A stretch of DNA of 64,000 bases from the NCBI GenBank assembly GCA_000182565.2, contig KQ257458.1; one strand, written 5' to 3'. This document shows positions 1 through 16,602 of this stretch, piece by piece (within the stretch, counting starts at the first letter, position 1; every line of letters starts with the position of its first letter). Position numbers and translations under genes: made by a program. Origin of the DNA: Spizellomyces punctatus DAOM BR117 (taxonomy: Eukaryota). The notes under the pieces were generated by a model, which was not told where the DNA came from, did no database searches, and was given only the letters and a program-made list of their open reading frames with translations.

Positions 1-1904
1 CTGTAGGCGAACGAGGATTCCGAACCACATCGTCCATAGAAAATACTCGGTTTACCATCGCTCTCAAGAATCCTGAGTAAATTGCGTGACAACATTGACT
101 TTTTGAAATTTGGATACATTCTTTGAAGAACTTCAGATGCTATTCCTGGTAGCGTTTTATCATTAAAGTCCACTGCGAGTTTCTCGGAGATCTCTCTTCT
201 TTTTGTAAAATTGTTGTCTAGACGTATTTCGTTTCCGCCTGGGAGGATTATATCTTTGACGCAACAATCGCTTCCTTTGCTAGAAATGACATTCCGAACC
301 TTAGGGATGACAAGGGTTTGTTTAATGTATTCTAGAAAGACACTTTCAATCAAGTGGCTTTCATTGAAATCTTTTAGTATGTACACACGATGTTTATCTG
401 ATTTGGTTGCTTCTTGCTCACAAATATCATCTACCGTCGATTTCAAGTCACAGTTTGTTTCAACAAAGATCCATTGAACATCCTTGCCGGGATTCTCTCT
501 CTCTACATCTGCACCGGGATCTTTCTTCTTCTTCTTCTTTTTGCTGACATCTACATTTTCAGACTGGATCATTTCAGCCTTTACCCGTTCGCGTAATGAT
601 TGCTGAAATTTCACATCATGTATCTCTGCGAAATGGTTATCATATACCCAACCATAAAGGGCTGGTAAAGTCCATTTAAACGCCCACTGATTACCTACAA
701 TCTTCTTCATTACCTCACCTTTCTGTTCGATAGATTCATTCGAACAATTGATACGAGCGATGAAGTTCCTGAGACAATCTATCATATAGTAGGATGCACC
801 ATAGCCTAATTTCATCAGTTCAAATGCCAGATTTGGCATATTCCGTGCGCTTGCTCCGTTGTCCAAAGACTCGATTCTAAGAGCATTCATGAGCCATTGG
901 TCATCCATAATCTCTCTACATCCTTTTCGATTTTGTGAACTATAGCCCCAGGTATGCCTGATGGCTTTAATCAAACAACGCCCCTGAGGAATTCCGTCAG
1001 GGTGTATGGGCATGCCATCTGTAAGATCCTTCTTTTCATCAAACAGTATCATATCTACAAGTTTTGCATCAGTCGTGACATCGATGACAGAGAACACATA
1101 TGTTTCAATGCGAATGAAGTCATTGTACTCGTCGTCTCTGTACATGGCAAGGCATCCGTCAGTTTCTTCATATTCCTCGATTAACTTTTGTGCTTTCTTA
1201 GGTGTCATTTTCCCGCGAACATTTTTGAAGACATGGTTACTTTGTTTACTCAGTGATTCCCGAAAGTGTGGAAAGTTTTTATCCTCTTCATGCAGAGGTT
1301 CTTGTCTTCCAAACACACCATGATTTTCTTCGAAATCATTCTCCTTTTGATCTATCTCATGCATCCAGTTACCTTTTTTCTGCCTACGAAGATCTTGTAC
1401 TTTTTTGTAACGATGATCCCTTGATCTGGCAAATCGGTCACCTTCCGTATATTCACGCTCACTATAAAATGGAGCCGTGTTCATCTCACACCAGTAAAGA
1501 AGATGTGTCCATTCGATTGCATAATCGGCTATTTGTTTTCTAGTGGCAGCGCCTTTCTCAGCGGCTTCCTTTCGCTTTTTAATAGCAGCCTGAGCCCTCT
1601 CTTGAATTTCTCTCATCTCGCGCTCTTCCGCTTCTTTATTAAGCCTTCTCGTCTCTCTGGCCTTTTCAGCAATAGCCTGCTTTTGAGCCTCAGTGCGTCT
1701 CGCTGCAGCAATTCTTTTTTCTCACTCAGATTGTAGGAATCTTGGTACTCGATGTATTTGAAGGTTCTCTAGTGCTTCTCGTCGTTTCTTAGTCCAGTTC
1801 TTACGTGAGAAGTTTCCAGAGACGATCTTCCGCATCATCTTCTCGAAAGGCTTCGAGTCTTCTTTTACGTTTCTGTTTGCGATTGGGTCAAAAATCAAAG
1901 ACAT
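1..1904 (-). pseudogene. Large viral ORF (>=634 codons, runs off the window), probably the N-terminal part of a protein-primed family B DNA polymerase/replicase; one in-frame TGA at 1722-1724
   Basis: Manual translation: the frame of ORF 1722..1904 continues with no further stop from 1721 to the window edge. It ends ...KLAVDFNDKTLPGIASEVLQRMYPNFKKSMLSRNLLRILESDGKPSIFYGRCGSESSFAY, which resembles the region before motif A in PLV PolBs. Catalytic motifs are not in the window. Confidence 0.5.
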
Positions 1905-1973
1905 AGTAAATAGAAATATATAGTGTTAAAAAATAAATATTTTCAAAGCTTTAAACGTATTTGTTCTTCGAAT

Positions 1974-2070
1974 GATCCCGGCGCAGAGCCATATCCCGGC
2001 GCAGAGCCATATGCCGGAAGGCATGCCGGCAGGCATGCCGGGCGCGGAGCGGCCAATCCCGGCAGGGATG
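1974..2070 (+). repeat. GC-rich mini-hairpin module cluster (intergenic copy)
   Basis: ATCCCGGCGCAGAGCCAT twice, then ATGCCGGAAGGC, ATGCCGGCAGGC, ATGCCGGGCGCGGAGCGGCCA and ATCCCGGCAGGGAT. Confidence 0.95.
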
Positions 2071-2071
2071 T

Positions 2072-2383
2072 TCATGCGAAGTGAGCAACTTTTACTGGAT
2101 CATCAGGAATAGCCACTTTTCGATTTATTTTAAAGCATCTCCGCTTAGGAGGAGGTGGTGGTTTTCGTATACATGGTAACTTTTCTATAGCATACATCTT
2201 TGAAATAGGCGATTCTGCTAACCCATGTATTATATTATGAATGTACGAGCACGAGACACCTAACCTGTTAGCAATCTCTATGGCTGCCCGATAGTCATTT
2301 ACAAATGTTCTAGAACCATCTTCTTCGATCTTGTATACCCTGTAGCGATCCTTCGTGTTTATCGATCCTGATTTGCGTCCCAT
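2072..2383 (-). CDS. Small basic helix-turn-helix (NUMOD1-like) DNA-binding protein, viral
   Basis: YRAAIEIANRLGVSCSYIHNIIHG fits an HTH/NUMOD1-like pattern; basic Pro-rich tail; AT-rich upstream region. Confidence 0.6.
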   Translation of the reverse strand: MGRKSGSINTKDRYRVYKIEEDGSRTFVNDYRAAIEIANRLGVSCSYIHNIIHGLAESPISKMYAIEKLPCIRKPPPPPKRRCFKINRKVAIPDDPVKVAHFA

Positions 2384-2665
2384 GTTAAAATATATTGTGT
2401 ATACAAAATATTATTTCTCTTTGTTTAAACGTGTGTGTTTATTAGCAAACGTTGTACAAAAGCTCTATAACAACGCCCCTACATGACGCTAAACAAAGGG
2501 ATATCTATGTACATTGTGCTACGAAACACCTTTACAGACTGTTTTTGTCGTTTTGTATTTTTTTTCTGGTTTTGTTGTTTCCATGTCTGTTCTTCAAACG
2601 GACGACATAATTTTTTTGTTGATTTCATGGATTTTTTAGCGTGTGTCAACGGTAATTGAAGAGAA

Positions 2666-3397
2666 TCAAGCAGCGGCGCTACTGCTTCCTACATCTGGAG
2701 GATTGATAACATCAGCATGGACAATGTCCTGATCGCTCACTTTAGCCTTGACGCTCTTTCTGCGCTTAGGGATGCTAGCTGCTATGAGTGCGTTAATCTG
2801 CATCTGCTGCTGCTCGATACGCTCCATGAGCATTTGCTCTAAATTAGCGGAATCCCCATCACGCTCAGGCTCAGGAAAGCCTGCCGGGATGCCTGCCGGC
2901 ATGCCTTCCGGCATATGGCTCTGCGCCGGGATATGGCTCTGCGCCGGGATATGGGTCTGCACCGGGCTTGACCGCTCCGCGCCTGGCATACTCTCTTTCT
3001 CGACACGTCTGCGTTTAGCCTTTTGTGGACTGTAATCGCTGTCATCGGCATCATCGGAATCGTCAGCATCAGATGAAGAACCAGAACTCAAGGTTTCACC
3101 ATCGGACTCTTCGAACTCTTCAAACTTCCTCTTTAACTTGAGAGATGAAGATTTCCGTTGAGTCTCTTCTCGCTTCTTCCGCTTTAGGAGTCGTCTCAGA
3201 TGACCTTTAAGTGATTCTAGCAACTCCTTGTCATCCTTATATATCTTCTGATTATCAGCCATATTTTCTAATAAACACTCGCTTTGCTCGAAGGTGAGAT
3301 CCTCTAGACCCATCTTGAGAGCACGACGCGCTATGGGATGTAGCAAGCCTCCTACAAAGTGCGTCACTTGCCCCCATTGACTCTTTGCAATGGACAT
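2666..3397 (-). CDS. Viral hypothetical protein with basic and acidic tracts and an in-frame GC-module insertion
   Basis: 243-aa ORF with an NLS-like basic stretch and a D/S-rich tract; IPAQSHIPAQSHMPEGMPAGIPAG is encoded by the GC repeat. Confidence 0.7.
   Translation of the reverse strand: MSIAKSQWGQVTHFVGGLLHPIARRALKMGLEDLTFEQSECLLENMADNQKIYKDDKELLESLKGHLRRLLKRKKREETQRKSSSLKLKRKFEEFEESDGETLSSGSSSDADDSDDADDSDYSPQKAKRRRVEKESMPGAERSSPVQTHIPAQSHIPAQSHMPEGMPAGIPAGFPEPERDGDSANLEQMLMERIEQQQMQINALIAASIPKRRKSVKAKVSDQDIVHADVINPPDVGSSSAAA
2880..2990 (-). repeat. GC-rich mini-hairpin module cluster inside a CDS, inverted relative to 1974-2070
   Basis: 2889-2950 is the exact reverse complement of 1975-2036 (62 bp). 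Confidence 0.95.
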
Positions 3398-3542
3398 GTT
3401 TCAAGTTCGGTTAGGTGTTTCAGAAAATGTAGCTATGTTTCAGATTCGGTTAGATGTTTCAGAATTATGGCGCGTGTTTCAGAACACGTATCTGATGTTT
3501 CAGATTCAGTTAAATGTTTCAAATCATACCTGATGTTTCAAA
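3397..3542. repeat. Array of eight phased TGTTTCA direct repeats (iteron/operator-like)
   Basis: Copies start at 3397, 3416, 3436, 3455, 3475, 3496, 3515 and 3534 (19-21 bp spacing), immediately upstream of the 2666..3397 gene. Confidence 0.85.
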
Positions 3543-3684
3543 CCCGTACTCGTGCTAATGGGAGAAAAGATACACCGAGTGCCTTTTTATGCCACCGGCT
3601 TGTACTCAGGGACGCCCTTCCGTTCAATGGAAAGAATCTTGGCATCCCTGCCGGCATAGTCTTGGCATTTCTTGGCGCCGTTTT

Positions 3685-3855
3685 TTAAACATAAACAACA
3701 CGCCTCACGACTCTTCCAGAACCGTAGCGTCGCTTACGTGTTGCTGCGGCTTTTCTAGCAGCGATGATGCGCCTGTTTCTTGCACGAGCAGCCGCTCTAA
3801 GTCCTTTATTCGGCATGGCCGATACGTTGACGAGTTTTCGATGTGTTTTTGTCAT
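3685..3855 (-). CDS. 56-aa Arg/Ala-rich basic protein, candidate genome-condensing core protein (not in the ORF track)
   Basis: Manual translation: MTKTHRKLVNVSAMPNKGLRAAARARNRRIIAARKAAATRKRRYGSGRVVRRVVYV*. It has no acidic residues, lies directly downstream of the MCP, and is preceded by TTTTTTCTAAGCT. Confidence 0.7.
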   Translation of the reverse strand: MTKTHRKLVNVSAMPNKGLRAAARARNRRIIAARKAAATRKRRYGSGRVVRRVVYV

Positions 3856-3917
3856 ATTCTTCTTGAGGCTTACCTAACCAAAGCTTAGAAAAAATCATCG
3901 TGGTTCCTGTTGTTGAA

Positions 3918-5306
3918 CTATGCTGGTAACAAGCGAACACCATCACGGTCGATGCGCATCTCATGGTCAGTTGTCCAGAAAACATGGAATGTCTTGTCCT
4001 TGAATGTCTGAATATAATCGGGGTTAGCCGTAGTACCATCCGCTAGAGTAGGGCTTGGAAAATCGGCTACTTCTGGAGGGTTGGGATATTGACTCACATT
4101 GATGAGAATACGCCCATCGGCTAGAGTATTCAAACCACCGCCGATCATATCTGGACTTTGCTTGAAATTTTGCCTCCATGACCAATGCTGTATCTTTTTG
4201 CCTGCTAGTGCCCATCCTTCCAAATCGGACATAGTGGGGGCAAATCGCACATCATTGAAATCTTTATTACGTTGGCTTAATGCATACATTTCAGGATCTA
4301 CAGTAGGTATAATATTAGTACCAGCACGAGCGGAACCGTTGGCAATCGCTTTTCCCTCAGGGAACCGCTGCGTACCCACCTGGATACTAACTGTTCTAAT
4401 CCCAGCATCTTCACTGAAATTCAATTTGTCTACATCAGTTCGAACATTGTCAGTTGTCACCAACATCAATGACGAAACAGAGGACTGCTCACCAGTCACA
4501 AGTGACAATTGCTGTACGCGACTGGCTTGCCCAGCAAACTCCTGACTCCACACAACTTGCATGGGGATGGTCAAGTATTCGTTGCTCTCCATTAGGCTAA
4601 GGATCTTGTTGTAGTATTCGGGTATGGGCTCGGCGAACTGGCAAATGAGTTCGTTCTGGACAATCTTGAATGAATCTATTCCTGTGGATGTGGGGAAAAT
4701 TTTGGCAAGTTCACTCTCTGCGGTCATCTCGACCTGGACACCACCTTTGACAAGACAGAGAGGGAAAGCCACTTCATTTTGAAAGAATGACAGTGATGAG
4801 CCAGTGACAGTGTATGCCCTGTTTTTAGCAACCACTGCTGAACGGTCGTTAGCCGCATCACTCGAATAATATTCACATTGCCCAAGATGTTGTTTGGTTT
4901 CCCACGATGTTAGAGCGTTTTCATGTGCGGTGAACAAATTATAATCATTGAGATCTTCGATGATCCTTCCATTAATAAGAACACTTTGGCGTTTCCATAC
5001 AGCATCTGTTCCTGATTGACATAGCCTGTGGGTTGCAGTGGCAGAAACGATTTCCTGTCTATTTGCATCAAGCCCTACGACACGATATTTATGTAAGGTT
5101 TCATTCACAAGCCAAAAACGCTTGTCATCGGCTATTTTAAAAGTGATTTTGCTGCCAAAGTTACAGTCACCCGATCCGTTGGTAGGCTCGAAGCGAACCT
5201 GACTAGATGGCTGAAAATTCAGCACAACCCCGTTCTTGGCATTGCGCTTATACGTAAAGACGTTTGGGACTCGTCGAACCTCAGTTACCTGAATTCCTGA
5301 AGACAT
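3918..5306 (-). CDS. Major capsid protein, double jelly-roll type (PLV-like)
   Basis: 462 aa and beta-rich. FEPTNG..NFGSKITFKIADDKRFW and AVWKRQSVLINGRIIEDLNDYN match the pattern of PLV MCP N-termini; adjacent to the ATPase and penton genes. Confidence 0.8.
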   Translation of the reverse strand: MSSGIQVTEVRRVPNVFTYKRNAKNGVVLNFQPSSQVRFEPTNGSGDCNFGSKITFKIADDKRFWLVNETLHKYRVVGLDANRQEIVSATATHRLCQSGTDAVWKRQSVLINGRIIEDLNDYNLFTAHENALTSWETKQHLGQCEYYSSDAANDRSAVVAKNRAYTVTGSSLSFFQNEVAFPLCLVKGGVQVEMTAESELAKIFPTSTGIDSFKIVQNELICQFAEPIPEYYNKILSLMESNEYLTIPMQVVWSQEFAGQASRVQQLSLVTGEQSSVSSLMLVTTDNVRTDVDKLNFSEDAGIRTVSIQVGTQRFPEGKAIANGSARAGTNIIPTVDPEMYALSQRNKDFNDVRFAPTMSDLEGWALAGKKIQHWSWRQNFKQSPDMIGGGLNTLADGRILINVSQYPNPPEVADFPSPTLADGTTANPDYIQTFKDKTFHVFWTTDHEMRIDRDGVRLLPA

Positions 5307-5338
5307 TGTGGTTTAACTTACACATCTAGAAAAAAAAA

Positions 5339-5365
5339 ACGTCACTTTTTAAGAAAAAGTGACAT
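5339..5365. terminator. AT-rich palindrome between the ATPase and MCP genes (candidate 3'-end hairpin)
   Basis: GTCACTTTTT-AAG-AAAAAGTGAC, a perfect 10-bp stem at 5341-5363. Confidence 0.5.
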
Positions 5366-5486
5366 CAAAAATTGTGCCTTTCGGAAAGGAGTTTGCTGTC
5401 CTAAATAGCCTGAACTCAGTCGGTGTAGCTTAACAAGTTACAATGGTTGTCAAAGCGAGGGGGTCAAAGGGGGACAGCCTATCCCC

Positions 5487-6158
5487 CTACAAAAAACCAA
5501 CTCTAAATGGTCTTTTCGAACTTTGTAGATTTATGTGCACAAAATGAAACGGTTTCTTTGTATTATCCATAACGAACTTTTCAAATACATCTTCAGGTAA
5601 AGCGAGAGATAAGCCTGATTCGATCATTTTCTTAAGTTCACTTTTCAAAGGTCTAAAAATGATCCAGTTCGTCGCATTGCTACGGACAGCGGGACTATTG
5701 TGATAAAAATATTGACTCGACAGGATGCAGGTGATTCCAGCATGTCTACCCCGTGTAGCCAACTCATCGAGTGACTTCTTATGTCCTTTCTGCATATTGT
5801 AGTCATCTATGATAAGAAGTAAATCTCGTTTTCTTCCGCTTCGAACAAATTCATAAAGTTGCTCTTCGTGTATAAAATTGAGTATTTCATTGGAAATCTT
5901 GTCAAATATATGAACCTTTTTGCTCGTTCTTAAAGGGTTCCAATTGGTGTCATGTGGATTTGGTGTGAATATTATGATATTCGAATACTGCTTCTTCAAG
6001 AACAATTTGCATATCACAGCAATGTTTAGCGTTTTACCGCTAAATCGAGCGCCATTGTATACGATAAAACCATACTTTCTAGGAAGCCGTGGATCTGTAT
6101 TATCCTTTATTCATCCAGAGACTTGACTAGGTAAGGGGGCAATTGTGATTGGCTTCAT
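5487..6158 (-). pseudogene. A32/FtsK-like DNA packaging ATPase with a premature TGA at codon 16 (6111-6113)
   Basis: From ATG 6158 it reads MKPITIAPLPSQVSG*IKDNTDPRLPRKYGFIVYNGARFSGKT (Walker A). Walker B is LLLIIDD, followed by the A32-type RGRHAGITCILSSQ and VRSNAT motifs. Confidence 0.9.
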
Positions 6159-6206
6159 TGCACTTGTTTTTTATTTGCTCTCTGTATCTATAATACATTA
6201 GAAGAA

Positions 6207-6950
6207 ATGAAAAAGTTGATTCTCGATAGCAACAGAGCGACGAACGGAAACAGGAATGAACCTAAATGGACTCTAGCCGAACCCATTGCATGTGATAAAA
6301 TTCGATACAATTCAATCATTTTGCCCCTTTCGTGGGACATAGTAAACGACAAGAACAATATTGTCTCCTTTTATGATGCTGGGATGGGTAATGCTGCAAG
6401 GACTTTCGTTATACCTCCTGGTACTTACTCTCCAGATGATTTAGTGGATGCACTGACTGCTGGATTCAACTCTACAGGGACGCAAGCATACACTGTAGAA
6501 TACAATCATATAAACAATCAAATCACAGTGACCGCGGGTACAACACCATTCAAAGTTCTCTACCCTCAAACCACAGCAAGCAAACTGCTCGGATTAGTTC
6601 AGACGCAGCAATCTGACCCTGGGAGATCAATAACTTTTGCGAATCCAATCGATTTGACAGGTGTTAAGATGGTGCTCGTAGCCTCATCTAACATAAGGTC
6701 AAATGATGTCATTTATGCAGGCGCAGATGATTTAAATATCATTGCCTCTATTCCGGTGTCGCAAGAAATTGAAACTGTCCTATGTGTGCAGAATTATTTT
6801 GACACCGACTTCATTGACACAGAGTCTGGCCTTGTTAGTACGATCGACATCCGTTTGCTTGATGCAGAAACATTGCTACCCTTGGATCTACAGGGCAAAG
6901 GGTTCACTTTAGTTCTCGATTGTCATTCCTCCGGCTTTGCAGATGATTAA
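6207..6950 (+). CDS. Minor capsid (penton-like single jelly-roll) protein
   Basis: LILDS at the N-terminus, IPPGTYSPDDL, SKLLGL, IIASIPV and C-terminal IDIRLLD...LDLQG.GFTLVL are typical of PLV/virophage/NCLDV minor capsid proteins. Confidence 0.85.
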   Translation: MKKLILDSNRATNGNRNEPKWTLAEPIACDKIRYNSIILPLSWDIVNDKNNIVSFYDAGMGNAARTFVIPPGTYSPDDLVDALTAGFNSTGTQAYTVEYNHINNQITVTAGTTPFKVLYPQTTASKLLGLVQTQQSDPGRSITFANPIDLTGVKMVLVASSNIRSNDVIYAGADDLNIIASIPVSQEIETVLCVQNYFDTDFIDTESGLVSTIDIRLLDAETLLPLDLQGKGFTLVLDCHSSGFADD

Positions 6951-6977
6951 TTTTTTTTCATTTGGAACATGTAAAAG

Positions 6978-7295: not shown

Positions 7296-7319
7296 TGCTA
7301 CTTTTAGAAAAAGTAGCGT
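7295..7319. terminator. AT-rich palindrome between two convergent stop codons
   Basis: ATGCTACTTTT-AGA-AAAAGTAGCGT fills the gap between TAA 7295 and the stop of the opposite-strand gene at 7319. Confidence 0.6.
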
Positions 7320-7579
7320 CAAATGATTTCATTCAAGTCATCACTGTAAAGAGGATTTTCATGAATAATAACATATTCGTTCCAGTTAATACCCCCCGCA
7401 TCAGCGTCTGGGATGATGGTTTCCTTACTGTATGCTAATGCCGGCTCAGGCATGCGAGGTTCCTCCAGTTCTCTTATAATTCGAGAAAGAACTGTTTCCA
7501 TTTCTTGCCCTTCATTCCTTTCAGCCAACTTCTTCCTCAAACGCTCTTGTATCCGTTCCTTCCTTTGCTGAGACGACAT
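7319..7579 (-). CDS. Viral hypothetical protein (MSSQQRKERIQERLRKKLAERN...)
   Basis: Likely start is ATG 7579 after an A-rich leader; divergent from the 7629 gene. Confidence 0.6.
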   Translation of the reverse strand: MSSQQRKERIQERLRKKLAERNEGQEMETVLSRIIRELEEPRMPEPALAYSKETIIPDADAGGINWNEYVIIHENPLYSDDLNEII

Positions 7580-7628: not shown

Positions 7629-8606
7629 ATGTCTGTTGCCGAATTAGTAAAACTACTACAGCAAGGTAACACTGATGTAACTGCTTACAACTCTGAGCAG
7701 GTTGAACGTGATGTGTTCTGGAAAGAAAAAAGAAAATGGGTTGACTCAAAGTTACCTACAGGCTATTTCAAGCACCCGCTGTTAAACAAGTATCGTTCAT
7801 TTGGTAAGGTTGATACACAATTTGTCAGTGACCCATACTATATTGAAATTGATAATAGACGTTTTGGTGAACTGAGAGATGAAAATGGACGCTCTTTGAA
7901 TCCTGATACATTTCGTCCCATTGTGTCTGATGCAGAACTCAAACAGATGCGGGAGGGTCGTACCCGGATGAATGCTCCGAGTGCTAATCAAGAAACTAGG
8001 TATCCGATAAACCACGGTAGTGAAGGATACAAAAATGACATAGATTTGATTGCACGCATCCGACGAATGCGCGAAGGTTATGAAGAGTTTATAAAAGAGG
8101 AAAAACGTAAGGAATTGGCTGACATACAGCGTTTCCGCTCTTCACATGGTATTCACAATCCTGGGGAGAGTTTGCTAGAAACAACTGGCTTGGGCACTAG
8201 GGGTACTGATATTTCTGCCTCAAGAGATGAATACAACATGCAACGTGGCGTGATACGACCTACTCCTGCTTTGTCTGAGAACATCTTTTATGAGGAAGGA
8301 GGCACGCCACCTACACAATTAGTTCTACATAGGCGATCTGAATCACCAACCTCAGGCTTACCATCACTAGCGCCGATGGATGACTCACCATCTCCATCAT
8401 CATCTGCATTTGACTTCACAACAATGCAGCCATCGCCAAGGCTTCACGAGAGGAGAAACCCGAGAGAATCATCCTTGCAGGAAGTTTACAATCCAAGAAC
8501 CGGTAATTGGATTAGAAAAAATGGTAAGGTACACAAGGAACTTAAGAAAGAGTGGGCAAGTAATTCTTATAAGATACCATCATCATGGACAAAAGAACCT
8601 CGCTAA
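7629..8606 (+). CDS. Viral hypothetical protein with a C-terminal NPxTG motif (2-cysteine-adaptor-like)
   Basis: 325-aa ORF; VYNPRTGNWIRKNGKVHKEL resembles the NPxTGRxI module of nucleocytovirus and PLV proteins. Confidence 0.65.
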   Translation: MSVAELVKLLQQGNTDVTAYNSEQVERDVFWKEKRKWVDSKLPTGYFKHPLLNKYRSFGKVDTQFVSDPYYIEIDNRRFGELRDENGRSLNPDTFRPIVSDAELKQMREGRTRMNAPSANQETRYPINHGSEGYKNDIDLIARIRRMREGYEEFIKEEKRKELADIQRFRSSHGIHNPGESLLETTGLGTRGTDISASRDEYNMQRGVIRPTPALSENIFYEEGGTPPTQLVLHRRSESPTSGLPSLAPMDDSPSPSSSAFDFTTMQPSPRLHERRNPRESSLQEVYNPRTGNWIRKNGKVHKELKKEWASNSYKIPSSWTKEPR

Positions 8607-8645: not shown

Positions 8646-9473
8646 ATGCCTAAAAAAAAGGAATCTATGCCGGCGCAGAGCCAAATGCCGGCAGGCATGC
8701 CTGACATTACAGATGAAGAACAAAGTTTGAATGATGATGATGAAACTAATGACGATGATCATCAAGACTATGTTCAAGAACTTGTAAACAAATATGCCGG
8801 CGCAGAGCCTAATACCGGAGAGGTCAATGCCAGCGCTCCCAAAAAACGAACTGCATCAGAGAAGCAGCGAGCACATTTAGAAAAATCCCGAGAAAAGGCT
8901 CTTCAGGTTAGACGAGAACTCGCCGCCAAGAGAAAAGAAGAGAGAGAACTAGAAAAGAAGAGAAAAGAGGAGGAGAGGATTCTTGCTAAGGCCGAGGCTC
9001 TTAGGGTGGAACAGGAAAAACATGTCGAGGCTAGGCTCCGCGCTGAGGAGGACTTACAAAATACTTCATATAGTCACAAGACTAAAAAAAGAATTAAAAC
9101 GCCGATACCAAAAAAAAGATGGAAGATTGTAGTTGAGGAATCGTCAGACGAAGAAGAAGATGATTCTTCAGATGATTATGAGGAAGTTGTCAAAGTCATC
9201 AAGAAAAAGAGAAATCGCCCCGTTCACCACACTCGCGCAGATGTAGTCCGTTTTAAAAATGGACATGAGTATCCCGGCGCAGAGCCATATGCCGGCAGGC
9301 ATGTCGGGCACGGAGTGGCCAATCCCGGCAGGGATCCCGGCGCAGAGCCATATGCCGGCAGGCATGCCGGGCACGGAGTGGCCTATCCCGGCAGGGATCC
9401 CGGCGCAGAGCCATATGCCGGAAGGCATATCATGCGTACCAAACCACCATCGATCTTTGATGACATTGTATAG
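8646..9473 (+). CDS. Viral charged coiled-coil protein with GC-module insertions
   Basis: ATG at 8646; SEKQRAHLEKSREKALQVRRE followed by an E/K/R coil; 21-aa C-terminal repeats encoded by the 63-bp repeat. Confidence 0.75.
   Translation: MPKKKESMPAQSQMPAGMPDITDEEQSLNDDDETNDDDHQDYVQELVNKYAGAEPNTGEVNASAPKKRTASEKQRAHLEKSREKALQVRRELAAKRKEERELEKKRKEEERILAKAEALRVEQEKHVEARLRAEEDLQNTSYSHKTKKRIKTPIPKKRWKIVVEESSDEEEDDSSDDYEEVVKVIKKKRNRPVHHTRADVVRFKNGHEYPGAEPYAGRHVGHGVANPGRDPGAEPYAGRHAGHGVAYPGRDPGAEPYAGRHIMRTKPPSIFDDIV
9271..9428 (+). repeat. 63-bp tandem repeat (about 2.5 units) built from the GC mini-hairpin modules
   Basis: Units start at 9271, 9334 and 9397 and encode (D/Y)PGAEPYAGRHxGHGVAxPGR. 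Confidence 0.95.
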
Positions 9474-9531: not shown

Positions 9532-12500
9532 ATGCCTTTGCCTAATAGCATTCAAGGCACATATACGGTTCGAAGAAATTTAGAAGTCCTAGATAATTTC
9601 AAGTCCGGAAAAGTTAAAGCCAATTCTATCTATGGAGAGAGCCTACGGAATAAAGATGGTATAGTCACTATACTCGATTTGGATAGTCAAATGCCTAGTC
9701 TCTCCATTCAGAAAAATAAAGGTAAATATACCATCTCTCTTGCCGAGACAACTTATGTTTTTCCATTAATTGATGATGAACATGATGTCAGGCTTGTAAC
9801 AGACGATACTCTGCTTATAACAGAAGACGGCTTATCTGTTAAACCAGAGACACTCCTGCAACCTCTCTATAGGGCTCCCGACTCACGAACAGTAAGCCTA
9901 AACATTGATGATGATGAACTAAAAGTTGAGGATGAAAAATTAACAGTCATTCCTTATAACTATGATTTTCCACTCTACAGGGATGCCGAATCACGTACGG
10001 TTGGTTTACAAGCAGATGATACTTTGCTTATAACTGAAAATGGTCTATCCGTCAATTTCCCTGCTCCTGAGACGCTGAAAAAGCCGTTGTATCGTGACCA
10101 GAGTGTCCTTGGAATCAAACTTCATAAAAGTCTAAAGGTTAATAGTTCAGATGAACTCGAAACAAACTCAAGCCAACTGTTCAAAGCATTTGGGGCTATA
10201 AAGACATCCAGCGGTGCGGATATGCTGTTAGACATCGGGTCTTCATGGCTCAACTTTGGATTTGGTAGTCTGACCGAAATGACTAATGTGTTAGGAGAGG
10301 TAGACACCACAGCAATACGCTTAATGGTCGATTCTTCGACATTCAGTCAAGCAGGGTCTCGCTTGAGCCTAAAGTCGCCTGGCTACGAACAAATCCTGTA
10401 TGGGAATCTAACATACGGTTTTTCAGGAAGTCCTTCATTCACCTATTCAACAACACTTTCAGAGTTGCGAGTTCCTAACGTGAAGTTGACCGGAACGATG
10501 CCAGCCTTTGGAGACTCATATGTGGTTTCAAAGGGTTATATGTCCAACTTTTTCGTAGGGTCTCAAACAGGCGCGGTTGCTATAGGGCCCGAATTTTCAA
10601 ATCGAAGAGAAGTCGGAGTACTTGTTGACAACCAAACCATACGAATCATTGGAAATCAACTTGTTTCAGGTTTGATTTTCCAGGATTTTAATGGAGTTTC
10701 GATTCGGGCAGGGACTACTAACGATGTAGTCTTGAGTTTGAAGTGTGAAGCCGGTTCTTGTCTCCAAATGGTGAAAGCGGATACCATTAAAGATGTGCTT
10801 ACTTGCTCAAATGGAGTTGAGCGACTCCAGAACGATATACAGTTGAGTTTGAAATGTGATGCTAATTCAGGGCTTGCAATGTCAGGTCGTGATACAATCC
10901 GCGATACTTTTACAGCATCTCAAGGAGTAACTCGAGTGGGCAACGATTTCAGATTATCTCTTACGGCACAAGGTCCCGACTTAACCCTCAATAATGGTGT
11001 TCTCAGTTCGAACATCGCCGCGGGAATCGGACTCCAGAAAAATGGTGCCGTTTTATCAGCGAATCTACGTGGAATAAATGGTGTCAGTGTTTCGGGAGAC
11101 CTGATTTCGTGTTCGCTTACAGGAAGCGATACCGTTCTCCGAGTTGGTGATATGCTGAAAGGGAATTATATTGGCTTGACAAACTCGTATGGAAGTATCG
11201 TAGTTGTGGGTAACACGATACAGTATAATATGATTCCTCCACAATTCATTAGTAACAGTCCGAATCTTATAATCACAGGAAGTTATCCTATATACAATTT
11301 TACCATCATAGACCCAACTCCACTTTCGAAACAGAAAGATACTGATAATACGGAACAAAGTGATACCGCTGAAGTGTTGAAAACTGATGTTCCGGGAGGA
11401 AATGTGGTTGTTCTTTCTGGCGCAACTCCGTTGACCACAATTCCGTTCCCTTCAATGGTATCACCACCATTAACAGTTCCCCTTGCTGTAAATTCGATTC
11501 TTCCAATTGTCTCGACGTTCCCTTGGGGAATGGTCTTTGGTGGTGAACGCCAGCGAAAAGTAGAAAGAGATGGTGAGGGAAATCCAATACTCGATGGAGA
11601 AGGGAATCCTATATATGAACCGGCTGACCCGGTAACAGGTCAACCACCTTTAGAGCCCGGCTCGAATGTTGCAATTGCATCTGACCCCATCGGAGGGTGC
11701 ACACATCTCTTGTTTGATACGCCTTCATGTTATCAAGGTATCAAATATGAGTACCCTCAGCAAGCAATCAACCTCTCGATGCTAAGGGATTACGATGATG
11801 AAGTCATCAAGCCTTGGGTTGGAAGTCAGATTACGAATTTGACATCGAATAATGTTACATTTGGAGGAAACATCAGCGGTAAACTAATCAGCGGAACCAG
11901 ATTGAGTATTGCTCCGGGAGTGACAGGCAGTTCTGCCGTTTCAACATATTCCACATTCGATGGGGCTAAGAGTACTTGGTTTGGTCTTGACGGAATGGGA
12001 TTTTTAGGCTATAATCCAGGTGCATCAACATGGCTCGGTGCTCAAGATTCATCAATGTTTATTTTTGCATGCGCGGGGAGTACGCCGAATCTTGGGCTCC
12101 GAATCGACACCAATGGTTCGTCAACATTTGGTAAAAACTTAACGGTTGCCGAGGGCGATTTTACCATTGGCACTGCTGTTAACGGGTTGCGTTCTCTTGT
12201 GATTCGTAACACAAGTACTGGAAACAACGCTTGCCCTATTTTGTTTCTCACCAGCGCGACTGGAGTCGCTCCGATATTCCTTAATGGACCAGGTCGAACG
12301 GTCGATGGTGGAGCGAACACTTTAACGGTACGCAATGACTGTGGGTCTGTTCGCGTGCAAGCGCTAGGCGCAAAAGGGTTGAGCATTGCTGGAACAAGTG
12401 GCAACATTTCACTGGATAGCACCACCGTATCAACTTCTCCAATAACAGGCGCCTTTGTTTGTCCAGGAGGAGTTGGTATTGGAAAAGATGTATTTGTCGG

Positions 12501-15205
12501 TGGTAATATCTTTGCGTCCACGAATCTGAAAGTTGCTACAGAATCATTCGTTACGACAGCCGTTGCTTCAAAGCAGAACACATCCCCTTTGCTCGATGCA
12601 ATCAGTGGCTTGTCACCTACACCTAATACCTTCATCATGGGAACGGCTGGAGGTTTCAATGTGACACCTGTTTCTTCAATTCTAGGTGGATACCAACCTA
12701 TTCTAACGAATTCCTCAGCGCTCAATATCTCTTCTCTTACAACAAGCGGCTCAATAATTGTAAATGGCGCCTCTGATATTGTGTTCCATGTTGATAACAT
12801 CGGAAATGGATTGATGACAGGAGGACTGCTTGTCGAGGATGATTTGAATGTAGGAGGCATGATTTACCTTGGAGGTGTCGAGGTAGCCAGCCAACAGTTT
12901 GTTATTGCTAATACAAATCCTATTAGTCAGTCCTTATCTTCACTTCAAACCACTGTCACAAACAACAACAATTCCCTAACGACAGCACTTGCATCGAAGC
13001 AACCCATGAATAGCACGACAAACTCTATCTACACAATGACTGTCCAGCCTGACAGTTGGCTATATTCATCTGGGGGAACGAGTTTCGAGAATGTAACAAG
13101 CGCTCAAGTGAAATCTATCCTCGATGTTGCAACAAATGCTAATGTTAGTTCACTCCTTTCTGGGAAGCAAAGTAGCATAACAACTTCAACAAATTTGTCT
13201 CTGGCAAGTCTCACTGCAAATGGTTATTTAAGCATTGTGAATGCCGCCAATCCAACATACATGTCACTAGTCAACACGGCATCTAATGTGACTTGGGGTC
13301 TTCGAGTGGCTGGTTCTTCAGCAGATGGCTCTAATCCTGCCGGTGGTTTTGGTATAAATTGTTTGTACAATAATGTCGGTTATCTTTTCAAGATTTCTAA
13401 TACAGGAATAACCCAAGTTACATGCACAACAGATTCGACATCCTCTTCTACAGGTGCGCTTCAGGTCTCTGGTGGTATGGGTATTTCCAAGAATCTTTAT
13501 GTTGGAGGAGCCTGTACTCCAATAATGTGAAGGTTGCGACAGAATCATTTGTAACTANNNNNNNNNNNNNNNNNNNNNNNNNNNNNNNNNNNNNNNNNNN
13601 NNNNNNNNNNNNNNNNNNNNNNNNNNNNNNNNNNNNNNNNNNNNNNNNNNNNNNNNNTTCAAAAACAGGCTTCAAGTCCTTACTTGATTCTATAAGTGGC
13701 TCGTCCTCTCAGCAAATTCATTTATCGTTGGAAATCCTACTACTACCTTTGCAGTGAAAACACCTAGTGAAGTAAGGTCTATTCTAGGTATTACAGATGT
13801 TGACCTATCGGGTAAGCAGAATGCAAGTCCCTTGCTTGATTCCATTGCATCGATGTCACCTATGAGCAATATGTTTGTTATGGGAGATGATGTAAATGGA
13901 TTTGTTCTCGAAAATGATACTACAGTCCGAAGTATCTTGAACATTGTTGACTACGCACCAGACATATCAGCACTACAAGCGAACGTCTCTACATTGCAAG
14001 GGAACGTCTCTACATTACAAGCGAATGTCTCTACATTACAATCGAGTATCTCAACAAAACAAGATGTTCTCACAAACAGTAGTCCATTATCGGTGGCAGC
14101 CATCATTTCCAACGATACCGCTGATTCAACATCACCCATCACTGGAGCACTTCAAGTGAAGGGTGGAGCAGGAATCGCTAAGAAACTATGGGTTTCTGGT
14201 GCACAAATGACCGTCCAAAATACTAACTATAGTGTTGGACAAACCAATACCCTCATGTTTTCACACGCAACGCAAAATATATGTTCTATACAATCCTATT
14301 TGCCTGGTAGTAACAATGTAGACCTGAATTTCTATGTCGGACAAAACAACGCATCTATTCAAAGTATGTCGCTTAATGGAGCAACCGGAAATGCTTATTT
14401 TGATAGAGATGTCATCATCGGAAACACCAGTGTAAATGCTTTAAGAAGCATTCAGGTCAAGAATGTAGACACAGGAACAAATGCTTGTTCGATTTTGTAT
14501 CTAACTGCATCCGGTGGTTCGTCTGTTCTTTTTATGAATGGAAGTAATCGTTCAGTTGATGGAGCGCAGAATTGTTTGACTCTTCGTAATGACGTGGGTG
14601 CCTTGCGCCTTCAATCTCAGGGAGCAAAAGGTATTTACGTTTATCCTAACACAGGTAATGTCGTTGTTGAAAGCACCACTCCAGCGTTATTGAGTACAAC
14701 TGGCGCTTTGGTGGTTGCAGGTGGACTTGCGGTCGGTGCCCATGTCGTATCAGGTGGAAACCTTTATGCAAATACAGCGGTCTACGCTAATGGACAAAAA
14801 TGTGCGACTGAACAATGGGTCTCTACACAAGTACAAGCCTTCCCTAAGATTCAGGTGTTCAAGATGCTAACTAAAGATGTAATCACAACTGGTAGCGGAA
14901 CAAAGACATTCTATGTTTCTACAGCCGGCCGGGCATTGATACGCTATACCATCAACTTGCATGGCACCAATAATGCAGGAGGAACGCTCAATGTGTATCT
15001 AGGAACTAATGCCGGTTCGATGCCGTCAGTCTTTTCCAGTGATTTTAACTATAATGCTGGAGTGAACAGAACAATTTATGCCTCATTCATCGTGTCGGGT
15101 TTAGTTCCTGATGTAGCATATTTTACCAATTTTTCAGCAGTAAATGCAGCACCGGACATAAGTGCAGACGTAACAATTATAGAGATTACGGAACTTGGTG
15201 CTTAG
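9532..15205 (+). CDS. Very large fibre/spike-like protein, probably one gene interrupted by an assembly gap and frameshifts at the contig ends
   Basis: ORFs 9532..13530 and 13754..15205 share repeated modules (SKQxxSPLLDxIS; STSPITGA...GGxGIxK; LRS..RN..TG.NAC.IL.LT...DG..N.LT.RND.G). Beta-spiral-like repeats lie at the N-terminus. KVATESFVT continues in another frame at ~13510-13557. Confidence 0.7.
13558..13657. other. Assembly gap (100 N)
   Basis: Run of N. Confidence 1.
13972..14042 (+). repeat. 21-bp tandem repeat encoding LQANVST heptads (coiled-coil stalk)
   Basis: Translates as ALQANVSTLQGNVSTLQANVSTLQSS. Confidence 0.85.
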
Positions 15206-15256
15206 AACTCGAACGAGTGCCGTTATTAAAAAAAATGAAGCTATGAAGACATAAAA

Positions 15257-15565
15257 ATGCAGCGCGCGGACATTGCTGGTCATTCAGTTTTCAATATAAG
15301 AGATGCTGTAAAGGGCGACATGGATAAATTTTGGAAATTTTGTGAAAGTATGTTAAGAGGGGACAAGAGCAGGGTAATTCTCTATTTACCCCAAACACCT
15401 GAAAATGAACATATCTTTCAAGAGATTCTCTCCATCATCCACTTGAAGAAACTCGACCAATTATGCTTCAAGCGTAGTGGTTATCTCGCTATTCTCAACA
15501 ATTTTGTATTGTTGGGTCATTCGAGAAACGAACGGCTGTTTTTTTTAGAGATGAGAGTCAAATAG
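15257..15565 (+). CDS. Viral hypothetical protein
   Basis: 102-aa ATG-started ORF with an A-rich leader, tightly packed with the next ORF. Confidence 0.6.
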   Translation: MQRADIAGHSVFNIRDAVKGDMDKFWKFCESMLRGDKSRVILYLPQTPENEHIFQEILSIIHLKKLDQLCFKRSGYLAILNNFVLLGHSRNERLFFLEMRVK

Positions 15566-15566
15566 A

Positions 15567-15962
15567 ATGCATTTCATATCCGTACGGTCTACCAAAGACG
15601 ACTTTATAACCATGTTTGATGACCTACATCAAGGATCATTCAAAAACATGATCAAAGACTTCTCTGATATTCTACAAACGAAGCAATTCTCGCTGTCATT
15701 TCAAGACCCTACATTATCTGATACAAACCATAATGGCTTCATAAATTATTCGTCTATAGCATTTTTCAGAAATCGAAAGCATCTTATCACCATAAACCTG
15801 AAAACCCTAATGCCTGTCATCAAGGATCCTACGCTAGATAAAAGGGCGATCTGCAAATGCATATTGCAGCATCAGGAAACTCTATTGGACATGGATGACC
15901 ACATTATGAATGTGGGGAAAGAATACGCTCAGTTGAAGAATATTGCTTCTAAAGGTACTTAA
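15567..15962 (+). CDS. Viral hypothetical protein
   Basis: 131-aa ORF starting 1 nt after the previous stop. Confidence 0.6.
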   Translation: MHFISVRSTKDDFITMFDDLHQGSFKNMIKDFSDILQTKQFSLSFQDPTLSDTNHNGFINYSSIAFFRNRKHLITINLKTLMPVIKDPTLDKRAICKCILQHQETLLDMDDHIMNVGKEYAQLKNIASKGT

Positions 15963-15988
15963 AATGCACGCTGAATAATCTTCCACTC

Positions 15989-16369
15989 ATGATAATAAAA
16001 ATGCGCATTTCGATGCGTTGCGATACTTGTACAGGCTTTAGAGAATATCAACTCTGCATATGTCTGAAATGCGCTGTGTATTCCTGCTATGAATGTTTGG
16101 ATAAACTAAAAAACTATTCGCATGGTCGAAATCATGCTATCGTTCATCATGATTGTCAACAGTACATATCTACTGCTTTCGCCGCTCGCCGTGCTGGCAT
16201 CCCTGCCGGGATTGGACGCTCCGCGCCCGGCATGCATGAAGAAAGAAAACGAAATCCCAGGGCTACATGTAAAAAAGTAGCATCAAAAGCGGCGGAAGAT
16301 GCCGGGCGCGGAGCGGCCAATCCCGGCTGGTATGCCTCGAAGGTAATGTTGAGATGGGATGAGTTCTGA
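15989..16369 (+). CDS. Viral Cys-rich (zinc-finger-like) protein with GC modules in its 3' half
   Basis: CDTC..CICLKC..SCYEC..HHDC; an inverted pair of GC modules at ~16196-16233 and ~16298-16336. Confidence 0.5.
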   Translation: MIIKMRISMRCDTCTGFREYQLCICLKCAVYSCYECLDKLKNYSHGRNHAIVHHDCQQYISTAFAARRAGIPAGIGRSAPGMHEERKRNPRATCKKVASKAAEDAGRGAANPGWYASKVMLRWDEF

Positions 16370-16602
16370 CGCCTGAGTTGCCTACATGAAATATGCAACC
16401 AGTTTTTCAGCAGGAAACCAACGAGGCCATTTAAACAGATGCATATTTCTATTTAGTTCTATCTTTTTCATCAATTGAACCAAATTTATACAGCTTTTTC
16501 CCAAAAATCATGGAGTGTATTTTGTGTCCCCCCTCTTTTCTCATAAAAATGCTATGTAGGGAGAACATGTAGCAAGAGCTTCCGTTCTTCGCCGTTCTGT
16601 GA

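What the first reader, a model, noticed from the sequence alone, without database searches (positions are those of the whole stretch)
1..16600. Near-complete endogenous Polinton-like virus in a fungal (chytrid-like) chromosome
Seen in sequence: a compact intronless block of at least 16 kb with a full virion module (MCP, A32-type ATPase, penton, giant fibre, basic core-like protein) and a replicase-like ORF, joined to ordinary spliced fungal genes. Established: MCP plus minor capsid plus A32 ATPase defines Preplasmiviricota (Polintons, PLVs, virophages), and dsDNA viruses are poorly known in fungi. Inference: no adenain/Ulp1-type protease or retroviral integrase is visible, which favours a PLV over a classical Polinton or virophage, though these genes may lie left of the window. 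I cannot tell whether this particular copy has been reported.
Basis: partly seen in the sequence, partly recalled or inferred. Interest (0 to 1): 0.9.

Follow-up and report, generated by a model that had tools for sequence, protein, structure and literature searches.

The report
Broken, silent Polinton-like virus in chytrid
The left 16.6 kb of the window is an integrated Polinton-like virus in chytrid fungus DNA, of a kind already reported in this species, and this copy has broken core genes and shows almost no RNA in the one data set examined.

Summary
The block at 1-16.6 kb is real. It is gene-dense and no introns were needed to read its ORFs. GC is 42.6% against 47.9% in the host part. It carries an A32-type packaging ATPase (Pfam above cut-off), a 462-aa capsid-protein candidate, a modular fibre gene of about 1,900 codons, and the first 634 codons of a large replicase. 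Full-length relatives of that replicase end in a Pif1/RecD-type SF1 helicase. The proteins match Spizellomyces punctatus. The ATPase is 76-85% identical to 7 relatives, two of them named 'Powellomyces chytrid fungus MELD virus' proteins.

The Polinton-like virus (PLV) reading is supported, but it is not new. Bellas and Sommaruga (2021) reported an integrated PLV in S. punctatus, and Starrett et al. (2021) assembled related genomes from Powellomyces.

'Near-complete' needs qualifying. The ATPase (codon 16) and the replicase (codon 61) each carry an in-frame TGA. The fibre is cut by a frameshift and a 100-N gap. RNA-seq depth is at most 0.21 per strand across the block, against 45-99 next door.

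The penton call rests on a sub-threshold hit. The left end, integrase and terminal repeats lie outside the window. A GC-rich palindromic repeat confined to the element is a side observation.

The parts
3..1904 (-). First 634 codons of the replicase gene (start ATG at 1904-1902). Full-length relatives are 970-1382 aa and carry a Pif1/RecD-type SF1 helicase, and one also carries a C-terminal HNH. There is an in-frame TGA at 1724-1722 (codon 61). The helicase part lies left of the window.
   Evidence: tblastn of P0013 residues 1-636 onto 1904..30 gives 72% identity, reading through the stop.
1975..2070 (+). Intergenic cluster of the GC-rich palindromic repeat. It is the left arm of a 67-nt, 99% complementary inverted repeat whose partner is 2884-2950.
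2072..2383 (-). orf103, a small basic protein (pI 9.9) with a weak helix-turn-helix hint. It is enclosed by the 67-nt inverted repeat.
   Evidence: HTH_19 E 0.016, below cut-off.
2666..3397 (-). orf243, a Ser/Asp-rich protein of unknown function. The GC-rich repeat lies in frame at about 2870-2990.
3685..3855 (-). A 56-codon strongly basic ORF directly downstream of the capsid gene (pI 12.0 and K+R 33%, computed on residues 2-56). It is a candidate DNA-condensing or core protein.
   Evidence: The function is inferred from composition and position only.
3918..5306 (-). Major capsid protein candidate, 462 aa, intact ORF.
   Evidence: The fold was not tested.
5487..6158 (-). A32/FtsK-type packaging ATPase gene with Walker A GARFSGKT and Walker B LLLIIDD. 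An in-frame TGA at 6113-6111 (codon 16) lies upstream of Walker A, and no in-frame ATG follows before Walker A.
6207..6950 (+). 247-aa acidic protein (pI 4.4), divergently placed beside the ATPase. It is a candidate minor capsid (penton) protein.
   Evidence: DUF5901 E 0.0023, below cut-off; no solved relative. Assigned by size and position, not shown.
7319..7576 (-). orf85, acidic, function unknown.
7629..8606 (+). orf325, function unknown, with a weak C-terminal 2-cysteine adaptor hint.
   Evidence: 2C_adapt 19.3 bits against 22; no solved relative.
8646..9473 (+). orf275, a highly charged Lys/Glu-rich protein. It has repeat copies near its start and three tandem 63-nt (21-aa) GC-rich repeat units at 9271-9459.
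9532..15205 (+). Fibre gene region. It comprises fibre1 (9532-13530, 1332 aa), a frame change inferred near 13505-13515, the N gap at 13558-13657, a 1-nt difference at 13699, and fibre2 (13754-15205, 483 aa). It is probably one gene of about 1,900 codons built of repeated modules with a trimeric coiled-coil segment.
   Evidence: (table 4: +C at 13699 in 3 of 3 reads).
15257..16369 (+). Three small ORFs of 102, 131 and 126 aa. The last is Cys/His-rich. Its C-terminal part holds an inverted pair of the GC-rich repeat (16196-16233 / 16299-16336) that folds as a long hairpin.
   Evidence: (dG -49.7 kcal/mol, z -8.3, 0 of 200 shuffles as good).
16370..16613 (.). AT-rich non-coding right end of the element. 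The true terminus lies somewhere in this stretch.
   Evidence: The last repeat copy ends at 16336. The dispersed repeat starts near 16614 (table 7).
16614..18010 (.). Flanking dispersed repeat that is not part of the virus. DNA depth is about tenfold that of the flanks, it is transcribed on both strands, and CpG o/e is 0.48. It has no other copy in the window and no Rfam match.

Best explanation
This is the right-hand 16.4-16.6 kb of an endogenous Polinton-like virus in nuclear DNA of the chytrid Spizellomyces punctatus. It belongs with the published 'S. punctatus group' of PLVs and the Powellomyces 'MELD viruses'.

As a virus it would work as follows (inferred). A capsid protein and a penton protein build a small icosahedral shell. 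A long trimeric, modular fibre sits at the vertices. An A32/FtsK-type ATPase packs the linear dsDNA. A large replicase with a C-terminal Pif1/RecD-type SF1 helicase copies the genome. Integration functions, if any, lie left of the window.

This copy is a decaying, transcriptionally quiet fossil rather than a competent provirus. The ATPase and the replicase each carry a premature in-frame TGA, and the fibre reading frame is interrupted. With two nonsense changes in 14 kb of coding DNA, the decay is recent, on the order of 0.3% neutral divergence.
For: Shown:
- Host and family. The capsid candidate has 12 relatives in the word-indexed search. All 10 that carry a name are Spizellomycetales (S. 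punctatus SPPG_07208 at 99%, SPPG_05487, Gaertneriomyces, Powellomyces, Geranomyces).
- ATPase. It scores above the Pfam Pox_A32 cut-off and hits PHROG terminase large subunit at E 3e-8. Its 7 relatives are 76-85% identical, and two are named 'FtsK [Powellomyces chytrid fungus MELD virus 1 / 4]' on contigs of 21,205 and 18,610 bp.
- Capsid family. A profile of 8 chytrid-type sequences finds 73 proteins at E<=1e-3 among 1.84 billion representatives, most of them 400-470 aa. hhalign of the chytrid set against 27 of these gives probability 99.8%, E 1e-29, over 394 columns. Of 51 family members scanned, 4 hit Pfam Capsid_N (best E 0.001, sub-threshold) and 1 hits DJR-like_dom. The two Capsid_N hitters seen individually, P0033 and P0053, match at residues about 85-200. 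The language-model neighbours are viral clusters, some carrying Capsid_N, Capsid_NCLDV or DJR-like_dom on 10-24% of members. In the tree the 6 chytrid-type sequences form one clade (100/100), sister to 4 environmental proteins (100/99).
- Replicase. 7 relatives were found, and the four scanned show AAA_30, AAA_19, UvrD_C_2, Viral_helicase1 and HNH in various combinations. Profile hits to solved Pif1, RecD and Dda helicases reach E 1.8e-13.
- Damage. TGA replaces K (4), R (1) or S (1) of the 7 ATPase relatives, with 1 ambiguous. TGA sits at replicase codon 61 where P0013 and P0015 have Q. TGA is also used as an ordinary terminator in the element.
- Copy number. ChIP DNA reads give a summed depth of 6-17 over most of the block, against 9.3-9.6 in host bins 18677-20000.
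- Expression. RNA-seq raw reads (about 6 in 100 of the run) give at most 0.21 per strand in all 25 bins of 1-16675, against 44.9/98.6 at 17343-18009.

From papers (passages only): an integrated PLV in S. punctatus and its MCP group; PLV-type SF1 helicase replicases; Powellomyces genomes with fibre genes and varied replicases, S1H in virus 4.
Against: - No structure was obtained, so the double and single jelly-roll folds are untested. Three profile searches of solved structures gave no capsid match.
- The penton call is sub-threshold.
- The junction with host DNA is not bridged by any read or contig seen. It runs through a roughly tenfold dispersed repeat, so an assembly join through that repeat is conceivable.
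- DNA depth falls to about 1.4-3.8 at 10.0-14.0 kb and 1-1.3 kb. This could mean the assembly there is a mosaic or differs from the sequenced culture, though ChIP bias would also explain it.
- The reality of the two TGA codons rests on the assembly. No contrary base was among the 40 difference rows shown, but 166 rows were not shown.
- Silence is shown for one RNA run only.
- No related locus could be fetched for synteny.
Confidence: 0.85

Rival explanations
1. It is an intact, latent provirus. On this reading the two TGA codons and the fibre frameshifts are assembly errors or strain differences, or are read through. The element could then still produce particles, for instance when induced or when a giant virus infects.
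For: - All other ORFs are open, including a 1332-aa one.
- One fibre frameshift is contradicted by reads: +C at 13699 in 3 of 3 reads.
- The sequence next to the N gap is evidently of low quality.
- Several fixed single-base differences between the window and the run were seen at 6314, 8921, 14239, 14908 and 15159.
- Both breaks are the same codon, TGA.
Against: - No difference at 6111-6113 appears among the rows shown, although summed depth there is about 12 and rows with 8-10 reads were shown.
- No S. punctatus ATPase protein appears among the 7 relatives, as expected if gene callers could not model it.
- TGA terminates four other ORFs of the element, plus the fibre1 ORF, whose TGA is read here as a product of the frameshift.
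- RNA depth is near zero.
Confidence: 0.08
2. It is a mis-scaffolded or contaminating free virus genome, joined to the chromosome through the dispersed repeat at 16.6-18.0 kb.
For: - The junction lies exactly at a roughly tenfold repeat, and a contig of run X1 enters that repeat at 16614 from unrelated sequence (table 7).
- There is an N gap inside the block.
- Powellomyces relatives were assembled as separate 10-21 kb contigs.
Against: - DNA depth over most of the block equals that of the single-copy host flank in an independent run.
- The cluster representative lies on a 605,312-bp contig.
- Bellas and Sommaruga state that the fungal element is integrated in the middle of a large contig (passage). 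Which copy they mean is not known.
- Premature stops fit a resident copy better than a replicating virus.
Confidence: 0.04
3. It is a classical Polinton/Maverick or a virophage whose pPolB, rve integrase and cysteine protease lie left of the window.
For: The left end is missing, so these genes cannot be excluded. Starrett et al. report that some Powellomyces genomes carry a PolB (passage).
Against: - The replicase seen here is the SF1-helicase type, and it already occupies the left edge. Its relatives are up to 1,382 aa.
- No protease, rve or PolB family was hit in the 17 window ORFs or ORF segments scanned.
- The capsid family's nearest relatives are environmental proteins of about 410-470 aa. 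No scanned member hit any Pfam capsid family other than Capsid_N and DJR-like_dom.
Confidence: 0.03

Closest known systems
Integrated PLV of Spizellomyces punctatus and the 'S. punctatus group' of PLVs (Bellas and Sommaruga 2021, PMC7805220; placed among the Aquintoviricetes-like PLVs in their 2026 preprint)
   Same: Same host species. Same kind of element: MCP plus A32 ATPase, integrated in a large contig. The capsid family here also has many environmental relatives.
   Different: It is not known whether this is the same copy. The paper reports one element, whereas the protein searches show at least two capsid loci (SPPG_07208 and SPPG_05487, on different contigs) and a third replicase locus (SPPG_03309). 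No chitinase, reported in 52% of group members, was hit in the visible part. The premature stops and the silence are not mentioned in the passages read.
Powellomyces chytrid fungus MELD viruses 1-6 (Starrett et al. 2021, PMC8502044)
   Same: The ATPase is 83% and 76% identical to those of viruses 1 and 4. A vertex-fibre gene is present. The paper describes an SF1-helicase replicase for virus 4. Genome sizes of 18.6-21.2 kb fit a block of at least 16.4 kb that lacks its left end.
   Different: Those were assembled as free contigs from reads, whereas this one sits beside host genes. I could not fetch their DNA, so gene order and the presence of the GC-rich repeat were not compared.
Tlr1-like SF1 helicase / inactivated protein-primed PolB fusion replicases of PLVs, Tlr1 elements and transpovirons (Krupovic, Yutin and Koonin 2016, PMC5499653)
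   Same: Both are large proteins with an unannotated N-terminal region of some 450+ aa followed by a C-terminal SF1 helicase.
   Different: The PolB-like middle domain was not detected by Pfam or by the solved-structure profile search here. It also lies mostly outside the window. One relative (P0013) additionally has a C-terminal HNH domain.
Classical Polintons/Mavericks and virophages
   Same: All share the capsid, penton and A32-type ATPase morphogenesis logic.
   Different: No pPolB, rve integrase or adenain-type protease was seen in the visible part.

Membership tests
Polinton-like viruses (PLV; S. punctatus group) | Double jelly-roll major capsid protein | tested here: inconclusive
   Full-length homology to a large environmental family (73 hits; hhalign 99.8%). 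Capsid_N hits are sub-threshold in 4 of 51 members and DJR-like_dom in 1 of 51. Language-model neighbours are viral.
Polinton-like viruses (PLV; S. punctatus group) | A32/FtsK-HerA type genome-packaging ATPase | tested here: met
   Pox_A32 at 28.9 bits against a cut-off of 22.8. Walker A and B motifs are visible. The gene is nonetheless interrupted by TGA at codon 16.
Polinton-like viruses (PLV; S. punctatus group) | Minor capsid (penton) protein with a single jelly roll | tested here: inconclusive
   Only DUF5901 at 17.3 bits against a cut-off of 26.4. No solved relative. The Atlas does not hold the sequence. No homologues or model were obtained.
Polinton-like viruses (PLV; S. punctatus group) | Helicase-type replicase (SF1 or SF3) instead of pPolB plus rve integrase | tested here: met
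   The window ORF is 38-77% identical to 7 proteins of 970-1382 aa that carry Pif1/RecD-type domains. The helicase domain of this copy itself lies outside the window.
Polinton-like viruses (PLV; S. punctatus group) | No adenain-type maturation protease | tested here: met
   No peptidase family was hit in the 17 window ORFs or ORF segments scanned. This holds for the visible part only. A Cys...His motif in the replicase N-terminal region is an unverified lead.
Polinton-like viruses (PLV; S. punctatus group) | Terminal inverted repeats, target-site duplication and an integrase or recombinase | not testable with these tools
   The left end lies outside the window and no whole genome is held. No related loci were found.
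Polinton-like viruses (PLV; S. punctatus group) | MCP falls in the published S. punctatus-group protein cluster | not testable with these tools
   The group's sequences and accession numbers are in supplementary tables, which were closed. The link rests on the shared host species and the tool-given protein names.
Polinton / Maverick | [quoted passage not shown] | tested here: not met
   No such Pfam family was hit in any scanned ORF of 1-16.4 kb. The left part was not seen.
Virophage (Lavidaviridae-type) | Virophage-type MCP and cysteine protease | tested here: not met
   No protease hit was found. No scanned capsid-family member hit a Pfam capsid family other than Capsid_N and DJR-like_dom.

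The most novel reading that the evidence does not exclude
The GC-rich palindromic repeat confined to the element may be a mobile mini-element that spreads within the virus genome. Its modules are about 22 and 30 nt long. It occurs at five sites, in both orientations, once in intergenic DNA and otherwise in frame inside three ORFs. It includes a 67-nt, 99% inverted pair around orf103 and a 38-nt hairpin pair near the right end. On this reading it inserts in frame into viral genes, which would make it a eukaryotic-virus counterpart of Rickettsia palindromic elements or of the GC-rich hairpin elements of fungal mitochondria (both comparisons recalled, not tested).
Probability: 0.2. Interest if true: 0.5.

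Novelty: already known. Interest (0 to 1): 0.3.

Why it matters
DNA viruses of true fungi are still poorly known, and S. punctatus is a laboratory chytrid. A mapped PLV copy there is a useful reference point, especially now that giant viruses of zoosporic fungi have been described (PMC13533422, passages) and PLVs are suspected to interact with giant viruses.

The discovery itself is already in print, though. It also adds evidence that the copy is nearly silent in one RNA data set, a hint that the genome holds at least three related loci, and the element-specific palindromic repeat.

Tried and rejected
No model was made, so no fold search was possible.
- Complex prediction with two copies of the capsid candidate returned 'no answer' at score 0.00 and did not use my alignment. 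This is no evidence either way.
- Related loci: 6 scans of viral contigs and 2 of metagenome contigs with capsid or ATPase queries found none. One search failed because the alignment had no conserved stretch. The repeat motif has 0 exact matches in viral contigs.
- No whole genome is held.
- Sequencing-run search: no RNA holder was listed. The RNA evidence used comes only from laying raw-read run X17.
- TGA recoding was rejected as the likely cause of the in-frame stops, because TGA terminates four other ORFs plus the fibre1 ORF.
- RIP-like or CpG-decay signature: CpG o/e is 0.89 in the element against 0.92 in the host, so there is no signal.
- The OTU-like protease idea for the replicase N-terminal region (motifs GRCLIKA ... 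NHFAEI; the resemblance is recalled) got no Pfam or solved-structure support.
- No tRNA or Rfam family lies at the junction.
- No PLV-like fragments occur elsewhere in the window.
- Searches for DUF5901 and PF19254 in papers returned 0 papers.

Full report
**What is there.** The first 16.4 kb of the window is packed with long ORFs on both strands. Stop-to-stop ORFs of at least 100 aa cover 91% of 1-16400 against 73% of 18011-64000. GC is 42.6% against 47.9%, and CpG o/e is alike at 0.89 and 0.92. To the right lie ordinary eukaryotic genes. Seven of 10 long ORFs hit Pfam families such as RGS, acyltransferase, cyclophilin and WD40, each as a partial match, as expected of exons. A contig of run X7 skips 80 nt at 19640->19721 with GT..AG ends on the minus strand, inside the RGS gene. 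A 100-N gap lies at 13558-13657.

**Whose DNA.** The 462-aa ORF 3918-5306(-) is 99% identical to the representative of a cluster named S. punctatus SPPG_07208 (contig of 605,312 bp). It has 11 further relatives. The 9 of these that carry names all belong to Spizellomycetales: a second S. punctatus locus SPPG_05487, Gaertneriomyces, Geranomyces, and several Powellomyces hirtus proteins on 10-16 kb contigs. No whole genome is held for the window.

**Packaging ATPase.** ORF 5487-6110(-) matches Pfam Pox_A32 above the curated cut-off (28.9 bits against 22.8, E 1e-6; 24.1 bits for the shorter ORF). It also matches a PHROG annotated as terminase large subunit (E 3e-8). Seven relatives of 223-230 aa are 76-85% identical. 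Two of them are named 'FtsK [Powellomyces chytrid fungus MELD virus 1]' and '... virus 4', on contigs of 21,205 and 18,610 bp.

The relatives start about 16-23 residues earlier than the window's open frame. In the window, an ATG at 6158 opens the same frame, and the 16th codon is TGA (6113-6111). At that position the relatives have K (4), R (1) or S (1), with one ambiguous. No in-frame ATG lies between the TGA and the Walker A motif. As assembled, the gene is therefore broken.

**Capsid protein.** Pfam finds nothing for the window protein itself. A profile of 8 chytrid-type sequences, scored against 1.84 billion representatives, finds 73 proteins at E<=1e-3 (25 at <=1e-10). Most are 400-470 aa, and those looked up come from environmental contigs of up to about 21 kb.

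I aligned 51 sequences: the window, 5, and 45 of the 73. Of these 51, 4 hit Pfam Capsid_N (best E 0.001, below the cut-off) and 1 hits DJR-like_dom (E 0.019). No other family recurs. The two Capsid_N hitters seen individually, P0033 and P0053, match at residues about 85-200, which is the expected N-terminal position.

A profile-profile comparison of the chytrid set with 27 environmental members gives probability 99.8%, E 1e-29, over 394 columns. In a maximum-likelihood tree the 6 chytrid-type rows form one clade (100/100), sister to 4 environmental proteins (100/99). Two of those 6 rows are unnamed Logan proteins that I grouped by similarity only.

The ESM Atlas neighbours of this protein (0.98) and of its paralogue (0.95) are viral clusters. 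A few of them carry Capsid_N, Capsid_NCLDV or DJR-like_dom on 10-24% of members. These are leads, not proof. Three profile searches of solved structures gave no capsid hit.

Bellas and Sommaruga state that GenBank hits were confirmed as MCPs by HHpred (passage). I cannot tell whether that includes this very gene.

**Replicase.** The ORF at the left edge is longer than listed. Aligned with 7 relatives (38-77% identical, 970-1382 aa), it starts at the ATG at 1904 and carries an in-frame TGA at 1724-1722 (codon 61), where P0013 and P0015 have Q. tblastn of P0013 aligns residues 1-636 to 1904..30 straight through the stop.

Of the four relatives scanned with Pfam, three carry AAA_19, two carry UvrD_C_2, two carry Viral_helicase1, one carries HNH, and all four carry AAA_30. 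The family profile hits solved Pif1, RecD and Dda helicases down to E 1.8e-13. This is the large SF1-helicase replicase type described for PLVs, Tlr1 elements and transpovirons (PMC5499653, passages). The helicase domain of this copy lies outside the window. A third S. punctatus locus (SPPG_03309, another contig) encodes a 46% identical paralogue.

**Fibre.** Fibre1 (9532-13530, 1332 aa) and fibre2 (13754-15205, 483 aa) share modules, with 43% identity over 177 aa (E 1e-33). Fibre2 residues 45-113 resemble the trimeric coiled coil of the P22 tail needle gp26 (E 4e-5).

Just before the gap, the expected continuation of the module ('...LYSNNVKVATESFVT') stands in another frame than fibre1. After the gap the module continues in that frame and then shifts again near 13699. 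At 13699 the DNA reads carry an extra C (3 of 3 reads), which restores continuity. The region is therefore most likely one gene of about 1,900 codons. It has one frameshift of unknown reality, a gap, and one assembly or strain error. Starrett et al. note fibre genes in the Powellomyces genomes (passages).

**Other ORFs.**
- The 'penton' 6207-6950 is acidic and well placed, but it has only a sub-threshold DUF5901 hit (17.3 bits against 26.4) and no solved relative.
- A 56-codon ORF directly after the capsid gene is extremely basic, with pI 12.0 computed on residues 2-56.
- The remaining ORFs have no credible family.
- No integrase, PolB, protease or chitinase family was hit in the visible part.

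**Reads.** ChIP-seq DNA reads (X18) give summed depths of 6-17 across most of the block, like the single-copy host bins at 18.7-20 kb (9.3-9.6). The element is thus present at about host copy number in an independent culture. Depth falls to 1.4-3.8 at 10.0-14.0 kb and 1-1.3 kb, and contigs of run X1 are absent at 10.7-14.0 kb and 1-2.0 kb. I cannot separate ChIP bias from sequence divergence, so I draw no conclusion from this.

RNA-seq raw reads (X17, about 6% of the run) give at most 0.21 per strand in all 25 bins of 1-16675. The neighbouring bins give 44.9/98.6 at 17343-18009 and 11.9/17.7 at 18010-18676. The block is essentially silent in that sample.

The stretch 16614-18010 has about tenfold DNA depth, many variant positions, transcription on both strands and CpG o/e of 0.48. 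It is a dispersed repeat sitting exactly between virus and host genes.

**Age of the damage (inference).** In the element's 14,049 coding bases, 4.3% of possible point changes create a stop. Two nonsense codons therefore suggest some 47 neutral substitutions, or about 0.3% divergence, with a wide Poisson range. Inactivation would be recent.

**Prior knowledge.**
- Bellas and Sommaruga (2021, PMC7805220; 2019 preprint) report one PLV integrated in a large contig of S. punctatus. They define an 'S. punctatus group' of 27 PLVs, 52% of which carry a chitinase (passages).
- Their 2026 preprint notes A32-like ATPases in presumed viral regions of many chytrid genomes (abstract and section 7).
- Starrett et al. 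(2021, PMC8502044) assembled six 'MELD virus' genomes from one Powellomyces data set (passages).
- Two other papers cite the S. punctatus group (passages).
- Coordinates of the published element are in supplements I could not open, so I cannot say whether it is this copy or the SPPG_05487 locus.

**Side observation.** A GC-rich repeat occurs only inside the element. The 22-nt module (pattern CCGGCGCAGAGCCATATGCCGG) has 10 matches with up to 3 mismatches, and a 30-nt module has 5. All lie between 1978 and 16326, none in the 47 kb of host DNA, with 0 expected by chance. Copies lie in intergenic DNA (1975-2070) and in frame inside orf243, orf275 (three tandem 63-nt units) and orf126.

Two arms of 67 nt (1975-2041 and 2884-2950) are 99% complementary and enclose orf103. 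A 38-nt inverted pair at 16196-16336 folds with dG -49.7 kcal/mol and z -8.3. The motif has no exact match in the viral contig collection. Whether these are mobile in-frame insertions could be tested against the paralogous loci.

**Verdict.** This is a real endogenous PLV of a published kind in a published host. This copy is damaged and quiet. The fold-level proof, the left end and the junction proof are still missing.

Noticed in passing
window 1975-2070, 2870-2990, 8667-8819, 9271-9459, 16193-16336: A GC-rich palindromic repeat family is confined to the viral block (10 and 5 matches of two modules, 0 in the host part). It lies in intergenic DNA and in frame within three ORFs, in both orientations. 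No exact match was found in viral contigs.
   Followed up: partly
window 1975-2041 and 2884-2950: A 67-nt inverted repeat, 99% complementary, encloses a 976-bp cassette holding orf103, a small basic protein with a weak helix-turn-helix hint. It looks like a recent duplication or an invertible or transposable cassette.
   Followed up: no
window 16614-18010: A dispersed repeat of about 1.4 kb directly flanks the virus. DNA depth is about tenfold, there are many variant sites, it is transcribed on both strands, and CpG o/e is 0.48. It has no long ORF with a family, no Rfam match and no second copy in the window.
   Followed up: partly
window 10000-14000 and 1-1334: DNA read depth (X18) drops to about 1.4-3.8 at these stretches. 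Contigs of run X1 are missing at 10.7-14.0 kb and 1-2.0 kb. The rest of the element matches host depth. The cause is undetermined.
   Followed up: no
window 600-1300 (replicase residues about 200-430): The replicase N-terminal region has conserved Cys and His motifs (GRCLIKA ... YDNHFAEI) shared by most of the aligned relatives. They are reminiscent of a papain/OTU-type protease (recalled resemblance). No Pfam or solved-structure support was found.
   Followed up: partly
proteins P0028 and P0036 (named): Two very long Brassica napus 'hypothetical proteins' (2,071 and 4,110 aa) match profile positions 179-241 of the capsid family in 19 and 12 repeated stretches (E 1.6e-17 and 8.8e-14). This could be a tandem repeat derived from a capsid gene fragment or a compositional artefact.
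   Followed up: no
window 15954->17336, 16193->16227, 14712->14846: Contigs of run X1 join these points, with 9 other letters between in the first case. They may be variant copies of the element or contig artefacts at repeats.
   Followed up: no
window 38377-39987: A locally GC-rich stretch (0.556 over 38-40 kb) has long open frames on both strands (536 aa on + and 366 aa on -). The + ORF has no Pfam hit.
   Followed up: no
window 54433-54506: A single tRNA-Ala(AGC) gene, far from the element. No tRNA lies at the virus-host junction.
   Followed up: yes
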